A stretch of 64,000 nucleotides of DNA from Octopus vulgaris (lineage: Eukaryota): NCBI GenBank assembly GCA_951406725.2, contig OX597837.1, positions 8,990,001 through 9,054,000 on the forward strand, written 5' to 3'. The notes beneath the pieces were generated by a model. That model saw only the letters and a list, made by a program, of their open reading frames with translations. It made no database searches and had not been told where the DNA came from. Position numbers and translations under genes: made by a program. Positions within the stretch are counted from its first letter, which is position 1. Each line of letters begins with the position of its first letter. Shown here in pieces: positions 14,949-32,800 of the stretch.

Positions 14949-15369
14949 GGATAGAGTAGCTTTCGGATCATCAACACAAATGAGACTGAACAAGGAAACA
15001 TTCTTCATTGAAAAGTACAAACCCAGACTCAACCATCCGAACATACTGACACAGAGAAATTAACAAGGAAAAGGGAAAAAAATTTTTAAGCGATTATCTC
15101 CCTTACACCGGAAGAAATCACTCACTACCTCCCCTTATTTAGAAATCTCCTGTTAATAAACACAACGATAACTCCATGCAATATAAACATAACGTCACAA
15201 GAAATTTGAAAAGCTACACGCGAAACCGGTAATTTCTTTAAAAATTTTTAAATTATGTCATTTTAAGGAAAGGAAAAAAATTTTTCCAATATTCTCCAGA
15301 CATTTTGACACAAATATATATATTTTTTAACATTTAAGCCTTCTGTCGTTTTTTCACACTTTACTATTT

Positions 15370-15375
<6 letters not shown>
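14949..15375 (+). mobile_element. Penelope-like element 3' remnant (GIY-YIG C-terminus + 3'UTR with hammerhead motif)
   Basis: TQMRLNKETFFIEKYKPRLN fits the GIY-YIG C-terminal E...I....P.LN motif; flanked by (ACAT)n and (TA)n. Confidence 0.75.
15199..15238 (+). ncRNA. Minimal type I hammerhead ribozyme motif (U3-A8 variant)
   Basis: aagaaat-UUGAAAA-gc(tacac)gc-GAAA-ccgg-UA-atttctt: 7-bp stem I, 2-bp stem II, palindromic ACCGGU stem III, GUA site. Confidence 0.75.
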
Positions 15376-15438
<63 letters not shown>

Positions 15439-30814: not shown

Positions 30815-31167
30815 GCATTTCTACCACACCTAATTAATAGATTGAAATTAATGAATAGCTTTCGTCTCCTTTTCACCGTAGAACCAATTATATCATTACT
30901 TAATATAAAACAGGCTGAAATTTGAATCACCCTATCAAGTTAAAGCTTATAAATTTGTATTATAATTATGATAAGATTTTGCATTTCTTCAACCATCCAA
31001 TCCATGTATAATGTAAATGTGCAAATCTAGTTACAGATAATATGATAAATAACGTATTGCTCTGCCAGTGTGGCTTTTTCATCATCCGTATGCGCGCAAC
31101 TGGAAACATTTATATTACTTTATTTCATGATTTAATTCAATATTACGATTGTCACATACATGTATGT

Positions 31168-31474
31168 GGAGGCACATGGCCCAGTGCTTAGAGCAGCGGA
31201 CTCGCGGTCGAGAGACGGCGGGTTCGAAGCTCAGACCGGCCGATGTGTGTGTTTATGAGCGAAACACCTAAGCTCCACGCGGCTCCGGCAGAAGGTAATG
31301 GCGAAACTTCTGCTGACTCTTTCGCCACAACTTTCTCTCGCTCTTTCCTCCTGCATCTTGCAGCTCACCTGTGACGGAGCGGCGTCCAGTGCAGATGGAG
31401 AAACTATACGCTAAGGAAACCAGGAAACCGGCCCTTATGAGCCACGCGTGGCTCGAGAAGGAACAAACAAACAA
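31168..31474 (+). mobile_element. Full-length family B SINE
   Basis: Colinear with 12475-12776; ends aacaaacaaacaa. Confidence 0.93.
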
Positions 31475-31731: not shown

Positions 31732-32796
31732 TGCATATATATACATATGTATATATATATACAAATATATATGTATGTGTATATATATATATACCGACAA
31801 ATTCCACTGAGTGACCACATAGACTCATGCGCTAAAAACATAAATCCCAAATTCTACATATTCCCCTTCTACCACTGTAAGGACGGGATCACCACACAGG
31901 AGAGAATTAACAAGGAGAATCTCTTTATTGAAAAATTCAAAACTCAACTTAATATGCAAACTCCTCGTTGATCATACTTCTTTTTTCTACCTCATTCTTC
32001 ATGGATGGACTAACATAAATATATAAGGACACCATGCATTCATCACTTCAAGCTAAAACTTATATTCTTTAAATATCATTATTATTATTGTTGTTATTAT
32101 TACTATCATTTTTATTATATATGACATAACAATCTGAAATGTAATTATAAATTGGTTTATGCAAATTTATATAATTAGAAAATAATATAAATAAAGTGTT
32201 AAAATCTGAATGTTAAGTTAGCAAACAATTATATAAAAAAGATAATGCAAATGAAGCTAAAGTGATAATTTTATAATTTAAGGTTTATTAACACCCTTTA
32301 TCACAAAAAATTGATAAACACAAAACGAAGAGCTCAAAAACCATAGAGTTGTCTCCCCTTATTCACAACACAGGAACTGAAGAACTACAATTACTACTAC
32401 TTCCTGTTTTGCCAACACCCTTAATTAAACTAAACAACACATGGCTTTAATCCCATTGGATCCTAATACTTCAAGGTAATTTTTTCGTGAACAATCATTA
32501 AACTCAAGATACACAAAGACTTCACAATGTATCGGAGTACTTATTTTGTAATTTTTGTACATATTTATCATTATTTTTTTGCAAAAAACAATGCAATTTT
32601 CTTTTGTCCACTTTCTCACTTTAAAAAAAAAAATTTACTTTACAATTCTTGAAAAGTCACATTATGACGAAAACCGGTTTGAATTAATATATATTTATAT
32701 ATTTTATCAATTTTTCAAAAACTTTTTCCATACACCCATTTACATTAAAATTTTCTTTCAATTTAGCATTCTGCATTTTTACAATTTTTCCTTGCT

Positions 32797-32800
<4 letters not shown>
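31600..32800 (+). mobile_element. Penelope-like 3' remnant: GIY-YIG (split by TA tract) + AT-rich 3'UTR with hammerhead
   Basis: DLI..CPHCG before the TA tract; [54 protein letters not shown] after it, stop 31971. Confidence 0.8.
32644..32685 (+). ncRNA. Minimal type I hammerhead ribozyme motif (U3-A8 variant)
   Basis: aattc-UUGAAAA-gtca(catta)tgac-GAAA-accggt-UU-gaatt: 5-bp stem I, 4-bp stem II, palindromic AACCGGUU stem III. Confidence 0.75.

What the first reader, a model, noticed from the sequence alone, without database searches (positions are those of the whole stretch)
32644..32685. Second, independent U3-A8 hammerhead with different stems
Seen: same core (UUGAAAA...GAAA, CCGG palindrome) but different stem I (aattc/gaatt) and stem II (gtca/tgac) and a UUU triplet, again 3' of a GIY-YIG end. 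Conserved core with compensated stems across two diverged elements argues for selection on RNA structure.
Basis: partly seen in the sequence, partly recalled or inferred. Interest (0 to 1): 0.7.

Follow-up and report, generated by a model that had tools for sequence, protein, structure and literature searches.

The report
Known Penelope hammerhead, U3-A8 variant
This 42-base motif is the hammerhead-shaped RNA at the end of a truncated copy of an abundant Penelope-like jumping gene; its U-A core pair is a variant already in print, it shares ancestry with the window's other hammerhead, and it likely cuts only weakly and only as a pair of copies, which is untested.

Summary
The motif is real. 32644-32685 has a type I minimal hammerhead layout: 5-bp stem I, U3-A8 core, 4-bp stem II, 8-nt palindromic helix III, U17. 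A descriptor finds 2 sites in the window against 0.02 in shuffles; a genome pattern finds 6,241 against 5 controls. It lies 673 nt behind the endonuclease remnant of a 5'-truncated, 1-kb Neptune-type Penelope-like element in (TA)n. It is not independent of the window's other hammerhead: the two ORFs are 59% identical. Core and stem pairing persist across three families whose UTRs no longer align, which fits long-term selection. Yet related subfamilies amplified with a U3.G8 wobble or a cut-site junction one base short, and copy ends do not pile up at the cut site (0 of 27). U3-A8 minimal hammerheads in Penelope-like elements were published in 2014 (PMC4209133), and this scan noted them before in this and other genomes. 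Cleavage is untested; this lone copy is likely inert.

The parts
31791..32799 (+). 5'-truncated copy of a Neptune-type Penelope-like retroelement (family B, subfamily B1), between (TA)n tracts; lacks the optional ~45-nt 3' tail
   Evidence: Matches to 29 other loci begin at or after 31791 and run to about 32799; tail present in 22 of 30 loci picked by the 3' end, absent here
31792..31971 (+). Last 59 codons and stop of the RT-GIY-YIG ORF (endonuclease C-terminus)
   Evidence: Translation continues the ORF of longer copies that hit RVT_1 and, weakly, GIY-YIG
31972..32643 (+). 3' UTR / pseudo-LTR upstream of the hammerhead
   Evidence: 91-97% identical to other B1 copies; no alignment to the UTRs of families A or C
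32644..32648 (+). Hammerhead stem I, 5' strand
   Evidence: Pairs with 32681-32685; pair 5 is swapped A-U to U-A in sister subfamilies
32649..32655 (+). Core positions 3-9 with U3 and A8 in place of C3 and G8
   Evidence: Sequence; N7 varies among sister subfamilies
32656..32668 (+). Stem-loop II, 4 bp closed by G10.1-C11.1, 5-nt loop
   Evidence: Only helix of the monomer MFE fold; stem invariant and loop variable among B subfamilies
32669..32679 (+). G12 A13 A14 and the 8-nt palindromic helix III half-site (A15.1 to U16.1, CCGG centre)
   Evidence: Self-complementary; forms helix III only between two copies in the folding model
32680..32681 (+). Predicted cleavage site, after U17 (UUU triplet)
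   Evidence: Inferred from hammerhead numbering; not observed. Copy 5' ends do not pile up here
32681..32685 (+). Hammerhead stem I, 3' strand
32686..32799 (+). Terminal part of the pseudo-LTR; in tandem copies it leads into the 5' end of the next unit's ORF1
   Evidence: Tandem copies L152 and L153 carry the hammerhead in both repeats about 4.6 kb apart, with ORF1 starting within about 200 nt behind the upstream one
14959..15378 (+). 5'-truncated copy of the related family A, with the window's other U3-A8 hammerhead at 15199-15238 (7-bp stem I, 2-bp stem II, 6-nt palindrome, A17)
   Evidence: ORF 59% identical to family B

Best explanation
The motif is the minimal type I hammerhead in the pseudo-LTR of a Neptune-type Penelope-like retrotransposon, inherited from the same ancestor as the window's other hammerhead, and it likely self-cleaves slowly and only when two copies pair through their palindromes. 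Shown: anatomy, location behind an RT-GIY-YIG ORF, two same-strand motifs per tandem element, homology of the families, conservation of the core across them. Inferred: a read-through transcript of a tandem element (pLTR-ORF-pLTR) holds two motifs; each one's palindrome pairs with the other's to build helix III; cleavage after U17, probably helped by the element's own protein, would trim the precursor to a unit-length RNA at some stage. Insertion itself likely uses uncut RNA, primed in (TA)n and started inside the RNA about 120-165 nt behind the cut site, which would give the short and tailed 3' ends. The window's copy has one motif and lacks most of the ORF, so it is likely a dead passenger.
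For: Layout and chance controls. Element context. Monomer hammerhead fold +2.5 kcal/mol (ensemble probability 7.5e-5) against -15.3 for the two-copy fold. Two motifs 4.6 kb apart on one strand in L152 and L153. Families A, B and C are 64-70% identical in endonuclease DNA and their UTRs do not align, yet all keep the core, G10.1-C11.1 and the CCGG palindrome. Among 18 hand-picked representatives, stem I pairs 1-3 are standard in 16, 18 and 18, with 3, 3 and 4 pair types; stem II pair 2 is standard in 17, with 4 types. Among B subfamilies 4 of 5 scored free positions differ against 2 of 35 constrained, and those two are one compensating pair (p=0.0008). In print: U3-A8 minimal hammerheads in Schistosoma Cercyon elements, dimer requirement and low activity (PMC4209133); natural U3-A8 pairs, said to be active in vitro (PMC3088659); protein-assisted cleavage, internal RT start and tail in an anole element (PMC11167929).
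Against: No cleavage or transcript data. The two-copy hammerhead fold is 3.8 kcal/mol above the dimer MFE, in which the palindrome extends to pair A14 with U17 and stem I opens. A pairwise scan of another hammerhead found only the G-C swap rescuing pair 3-8 (PMC9901934). Subfamily B2, with one U fewer at the junction, has 597 exact pattern matches against 846 for the whole B clade (patterns not strictly nested). 246 U3.G8 and 68 C3.A8 matches include amplified subfamilies. 0 of 27 scored long B2 copies begin within 5 nt of the cut site, and 16 of 27 keep the upstream motif whole. Within-clade conservation against flanks is not significant. Rfam hammerhead models did not hit the two B-clade loci scanned.
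Confidence: 0.72

Rival explanations
1. The fold is a hammerhead descendant kept mainly as a non-cutting signal (RNA dimerisation through the CCGG palindrome, or a binding site for the element's protein), so cleavage has become dispensable in this lineage.
For: Several subfamilies amplified with a junction one base short (B2, A3, A4) or a U3.G8 wobble. The palindrome dominates the dimer MFE. No pile-up of copy ends at the cut site. Hammerhead mutants did not affect insertion in vitro in the anole element (PMC11167929).
Against: U4, G5, A6, A9, G12, A13, A14 and A15.1-U16.1, needed for catalysis, are kept across families A, B and C (the search pattern demands them, so part of this is built in). 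B2 can be re-registered with a one-base insertion in the GAAA strand, a tolerated change in print (U13a; PMC3088659), with a two-copy fold of -16.5 kcal/mol.
Confidence: 0.18
2. The motif is a decaying relic: selected in ancestors, now neutral in family B, and intact here only because the family is young.
For: Substitution rate within 30 B1 copies is similar in motif and flanks (24 of 1,260 against 233 of 8,558 cells, p=0.11). Subfamily-level test not significant. Broken-looking subfamilies amplified.
Against: The only constrained change among four B subfamilies is a compensating pair, while free positions changed in 4 of 5. Neutral decay of inserted copies is expected whether or not source elements are selected.
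Confidence: 0.09
3. Chance match in AT-rich DNA, or an independently evolved second ribozyme.
For: The region is about 30% GC; the monomer does not fold as a hammerhead; the two UTRs do not align.
Against: 0 of 200 shuffles reach the observed 2 hits; 6,241 against 5 genome-wide; same position behind homologous ORFs.
Confidence: 0.01

Closest known systems
Minimal hammerheads (min-HHR) of metazoan Penelope-like elements, U3-A8 variant of Schistosoma mansoni Cercyon (Cervera and De la Pena 2014, PMC4209133; parts 1-2 of 4 of the text and part 2 of 3 of supplement file 2 read)
   Same: Type I layout, short stem I (4-5 bp), U3-A8 core (about 1,300 hits reported there), G10.1-C11.1, palindromic helix III needing a dimer, position in the pseudo-LTR, mostly single truncated copies, inverted pairs close together. 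Its Fig. S3 lists UUGAAAAA and UUGAUAAA cores, a U3.G8 example, many U17 sites, a UUU triplet (Crassostrea) and 4-nt palindromic loops (Aedes).
   Different: Here stem II is 4 bp, not 7-8; there is no unpaired base between positions 9 and 10.1; helix III is an 8-nt palindrome. U3-A8 dominates the CCGG-type motifs of this genome (6,241 against 117 C3-G8 by similar patterns). Host element is Neptune-type by eye.
Hammerhead of Poseidon_Ac (PAc) from the green anole (Frangieh et al. 2024, PMC11167929; parts 1-2 of 4 read)
   Same: Pseudo-LTR hammerhead, optional tail at the 3' end, AT-rich targets, no sign of RNA or copy ends at the cut site.
   Different: C3-G8 core, overlaps the ORF start, Penelope/Poseidon clade without the Zn-finger linker; cleavage shown there (protein-assisted), untested here.
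Small PLE-associated hammerheads that cleave as dimers (Lunse, Weinberg and Breaker, RNA Biol 14:1499; text not held, seen only as cited in PMC6765202)
   Same: Very short palindromic stem III, dimer cleavage, link to Penelope-like elements.
   Different: Could not check whether that set includes U3-A8 motifs of this layout or this genome.
Neptune-clade EN+ Penelope-like elements (Craig et al. 2021, PMC8557442; passages and supplement part 54 read)
   Same: RT with DKG motif, CX2-5CxxC linker, C-terminal GIY-YIG, (TA)n targets, tandem and inverted pseudo-LTRs, tail.
   Different: An upstream ORF1 joined to the RT ORF at a conserved slippery heptamer; clade placement judged by eye against Fig. 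S2, no tree with references.
Metazoan non-LTR retrozymes (PMC7229834, passages; bioRxiv 10.64898/2026.07.22.740005, part 1 of 5)
   Same: Type I hammerhead with weak palindromic helix III; a 359-bp tandem family in this genome has the same CCGG palindrome.
   Different: Retrozymes are short non-coding tandem repeats; this motif belongs to a protein-coding element.

Membership tests
Minimal type I hammerhead of metazoan PLEs | Helices I and II around the core in type I order | tested here: met
   5-bp stem I, 4-bp stem II
Minimal type I hammerhead of metazoan PLEs | Core U4 G5 A6, A9, G12 A13 A14, A15.1-U16.1 and H17 | tested here: met
   Sequence; H17 = U
Minimal type I hammerhead of metazoan PLEs | Watson-Crick pair 3-8 (C-G, or the published U-A variant) | tested here: met
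   U3-A8; variant in PMC4209133 and PMC3088659
Minimal type I hammerhead of metazoan PLEs | G10.1-C11.1 closing pair | tested here: met
   18 of 18 representatives, but the search pattern required it
Minimal type I hammerhead of metazoan PLEs | Palindromic helix III unstable as a monomer | tested here: met
   8-nt palindrome; monomer fold +2.5, two-copy fold -15.3 kcal/mol
Minimal type I hammerhead of metazoan PLEs | Unpaired base between 9 and 10.1 (usual consensus trait, not universal) | tested here: not met
   Absent; also absent in published examples Saccoglossus(2) and Marsupenaeus (Fig. S3)
Minimal type I hammerhead of metazoan PLEs | Located in the pseudo-LTRs of a Penelope-like element | tested here: met
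   both repeats of tandem copies L152 and L153 carry it
Minimal type I hammerhead of metazoan PLEs | Site-specific self-cleavage | not testable with these tools
   Needs a bench assay; the indirect test on copy ends was negative
Rfam hammerhead families (clan CL00010) | Match at gathering score | tested here: inconclusive
   No hit on B-clade loci L137 and L140; family C gave HH9 20.9 bits, E 0.25; the C3-G8 retrozyme motifs of L061 were missed too, so the test is insensitive. One search showed only the best 150 of 438 rows, none a hammerhead.
Canonical type I hammerhead with loop I-loop II tertiary contact | Extended, bulged stem I that docks on loop II | tested here: not met
   Stem I stops at 5 bp in all B subfamilies and loop II is the most variable part
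Neptune-clade EN+ Penelope-like element | RT followed by C-terminal GIY-YIG endonuclease | tested here: met
   L153 ORF2: RVT_1 E 4e-7, GIY-YIG E 0.0016, below the curated cut-off
Neptune-clade EN+ Penelope-like element | CX2-5CxxC linker before the GIY-YIG motif | tested here: met
   Present in families A and B; long spacer resembles Neptune, not Nematis, rows of Fig. S2 by eye
Neptune-clade EN+ Penelope-like element | (TA)n insertion bias, optional tail, tandem and inverted pseudo-LTRs | tested here: met
Neptune-clade EN+ Penelope-like element | Groups with reference Neptune RTs in a tree | not tested
   No reference sequences on hand; one search holds only this genome's families
Neptune-clade EN+ Penelope-like element | Single ORF | tested here: inconclusive
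   ORF1 and the RT ORF overlap at a shared slippery heptamer in families A, B and C; PMC8557442 Fig. 1 legend allows a frameshifted ORF1 in some PLEs, clade not visible in text
Non-LTR retrozyme | Short non-coding tandem repeat unit | tested here: not met
   Unit is about 4.6 kb and protein-coding

The most novel reading that the evidence does not exclude
In this lineage the hammerhead has turned from a cutter into a shared RNA pairing signal. Several Penelope families and the retrozymes they likely mobilise all keep one CCGG palindrome that could pair across families, while the core slid to the weak U3-A8 pair and whole subfamilies (the commonest B subfamily among them) lost a base at the cut site and still amplified.
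Probability: 0.15. Interest if true: 0.6.

Novelty: new member of a known kind. Interest (0 to 1): 0.22.

Why it matters
As it stands it is one more of thousands of copies of a published motif in a published setting, so it matters little alone. The lineage is a useful natural series for an open question, what Penelope hammerheads do. Closely related subfamilies (93-95% identical endonuclease DNA) differ at N7, loop II, one compensated stem I pair and the cut-site junction; other families differ at pair 3-8 (U-A, U.G, C-G, C.A). Assaying a handful would show whether cleavage is needed for amplification.

Tried and rejected
Rfam scans: window (best 150 of 438 rows shown, all microsatellite-driven) and five loci gave no useful hammerhead hit. 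Sequencing-run search: no RNA holder listed; no read-level evidence on transcription or RNA ends was obtained, so expression and in vivo cleavage stay open. Pile-up of copy 5' ends at the cut site: not seen in B2 (0 of 27 scored of 30 loci; 3 lacked the anchor); in B1 4 of 30 fell within 5 nt, two being the arms of one palindrome and the others ambiguous AT-rich alignments. Lower substitution rate in the motif among inserted B1 copies: not significant. Constrained against flank positions among four B subfamilies: not significant. A loop II pseudoknot with flanking sequence: no pairing shared by the subfamilies, by eye. Family D motifs (L095, L096, L107, L168-L170): no RT-EN match within 1.5-4.5 kb upstream, host element unresolved. 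One search's protein step failed silently and was redone; one search crashed and was redone. The Lunse et al. paper was not held. Literature searches: hammerhead+penelope (45 papers, 25 listed), hammerhead+a guessed host name (nothing on ribozymes beyond PMC8557442's preprint), C3U+G8A, U3-A8 (only PMC4209133). No rate for UUU sites was found; that U17 and G17 slow cleavage is recalled, apart from GUG being uncleavable in PMC3138052.

Full report
Observation. The 42 bases at 32644-32685 read as a type I minimal hammerhead: 5-bp stem I, core U3 U4 G5 A6 A7 A8 A9, 4-bp stem II closed by G10.1-C11.1, G12 A13 A14, an 8-nt palindrome from A15.1 to U16.1 around CCGG, and U17. A descriptor asking for a paired 3-8 core, both stems and a palindrome finds these 2 sites in the window and a mean of 0.02 in 200 block-wise dinucleotide shuffles, none reaching 2. 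In the 2.8-Gb own genome a U3-A8/CCGG pattern has 6,241 matches against 5 for the reversed pattern.

Context. The motif lies in a 1-kb repeat copy (31791-32799) between (TA)n tracts. The search found 1,766 candidates, scored 40, and all 30 loci fetched, the window's own included, hold the motif. The window keeps 59 codons of the ORF end. Longer copies extend into an RT, a CX2-5CxxC linker and a GIY-YIG domain. Of 30 loci picked by the 3' end, 22 carry an extra tail of about 45 nt; the window's copy does not. L152 and L153 are pLTR-ORF-pLTR tandems with the motif in both repeats, 4.6 kb apart; inverted pairs are common. These traits match Neptune-type Penelope-like elements as described in PMC8557442 (passages; Fig. 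S2 by eye). No tree with reference elements was made.

Independence. The family A and family B ORFs are 59% identical over 358 residues. A tree of 21 endonuclease DNA stretches separates families A, B and C. Their endonuclease DNA is 64-70% identical, their UTRs give no alignment, and all carry the motif at the same place behind the ORF. The two window motifs are therefore homologues, not independent inventions. They are still separate samples for a covariation argument.

Selection. For: among 18 hand-picked representatives, stem I pairs 1-3 are standard in 16, 18 and 18, with 3, 3 and 4 pair types, and stem II pair 2 in 17, with 4 types (representatives are related, were found by a pattern that fixes the core, and B2 was counted in its alternative register). 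Among four B subfamilies (4 copies each) the only constrained positions that differ are the two partners of stem I pair 5 (A-U to U-A), while 4 of 5 scored free positions differ (p=0.0008). Against: constrained against flank is 2 of 35 against 22 of 224 (p=0.75; 0.09 without the compensated pair), and inserted B1 copies decay alike in motif and flank (1.9% against 2.7%, p=0.11). Pattern counts for pair 3-8 are U-A 6,241, U.G 246, C-G 117 (slightly different gap range) and C.A 68. The U.G and C.A sets contain amplified subfamilies, not only decayed copies. Subfamily B2 has one U fewer at the cut site and 597 exact matches against 846 for the B clade (patterns not strictly nested). It may use a register with one extra base in the GAAA strand, like the U13a insertion in PMC3088659 (section 8).

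Mechanism. As a monomer the hammerhead fold costs +2.5 kcal/mol (probability 7.5e-5). Two copies that swap halves through the palindrome reach -15.3. The dimer MFE (-19.1) extends the palindrome to A14-U17 and leaves stem I open, so the active fold has a competitor. I infer dimer-type cleavage after U17 in tandem transcripts, slow and probably protein-assisted. This follows PMC4209133 (monomer inactive, multimers weak) and PMC11167929 (cleavage only with the element's protein; not needed for insertion in vitro; RT starts inside the RNA and explains the tail). U3-A8 is described as active in vitro in PMC3088659, but only the G-C swap rescued pair 3-8 in the scan of PMC9901934 (section 7). None of 27 scored long B2 copies begins within 5 nt; 16 keep the upstream motif and 11 begin 9-166 nt behind it. 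In B1, 4 of 30 fall within 5 nt, all ambiguous. This fits insertion from uncut or re-ligated RNA. No RNA-level evidence was obtained (no RNA holder listed). The window's copy has one motif and no upstream repeat or RT, so it is likely inert.

Comparison with what is known. Cervera and De la Pena 2014 report minimal hammerheads in the pseudo-LTRs of metazoan PLEs, the U3-A8 variant with about 1,300 hits in Schistosoma, and palindromic helix III types. Their Fig. S3 text shows UUGAAAAA cores, a U3.G8 case, U17 sites and a UUU triplet. A search for 'U3-A8' with 'hammerhead' returned only that paper. I found no paper on this family, but the Lunse et al. paper and one supplement file were not visible. 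Earlier notes of this scan reached the same reading on other DNA of this and other genomes; they were leads, not evidence.

Verdict. Observation confirmed; interpretation partly supported. It works like, and by every sequence feature tested but one non-universal trait belongs to, the known minimal PLE hammerheads. New member of a known kind, interest 0.22. The boldest reading left open is that the motif now serves as a cross-family pairing signal and cutting is dispensable (probability 0.15, interest 0.6).

Noticed in passing
L125:3842, L126, L153:4495, L152, L117, L121, L130 (oriented locus coordinates): An upstream ORF1 meets the RT-EN ORF at the same U-UUU-UUA slippery heptamer in families A, B and C (6 of 7 long copies; L126), a candidate -1 ribosomal frameshift kept across about 60% amino-acid identity. 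ORF1 has no Pfam hit.
   Followed up: partly
L152, L153, L097, L098 and 597 pattern matches: Subfamily B2, derived from three-U relatives such as L164 (tree support 86/76), has one U fewer at the cut site. It needs either G17 or a one-base insertion in the GAAA strand, yet is the commonest B subfamily.
   Followed up: partly
L145-L148, L093; 246 matches: A-clade subfamilies with a U3.G8 wobble and/or a junction one base short amplified to many copies.
   Followed up: partly
L061-L090, L104-L106, L149, L150: A 359-360-bp tandem retrozyme with the same CCGG palindrome occurs with C3-G8, C3.A8 (tandem subfamily) and U3-A8 cores, a natural path between the two pairs within one family.
   Followed up: partly
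window 15199-15238; L099-L103, L110: A-clade motifs have stem II of only 2 bp or 1 bp; such weak stems are reported in PMC3088659.
   Followed up: partly
B subfamilies: N7 and loop II differ among subfamilies far more often than flanking UTR (4 of 5 against 22 of 224, p=0.0006), faster than background; unexplained.
   Followed up: no
L095, L096, L107, L168-L170: Family D U3-A8 motifs with a 3-bp stem II have no RT-EN match upstream; possibly non-autonomous or a more distant element.
   Followed up: partly
window 31153-31350: A dispersed repeat (78% identical to stretches in L005 and L017) with a tRNA-like look, upstream of the element; probably a SINE.
   Followed up: no
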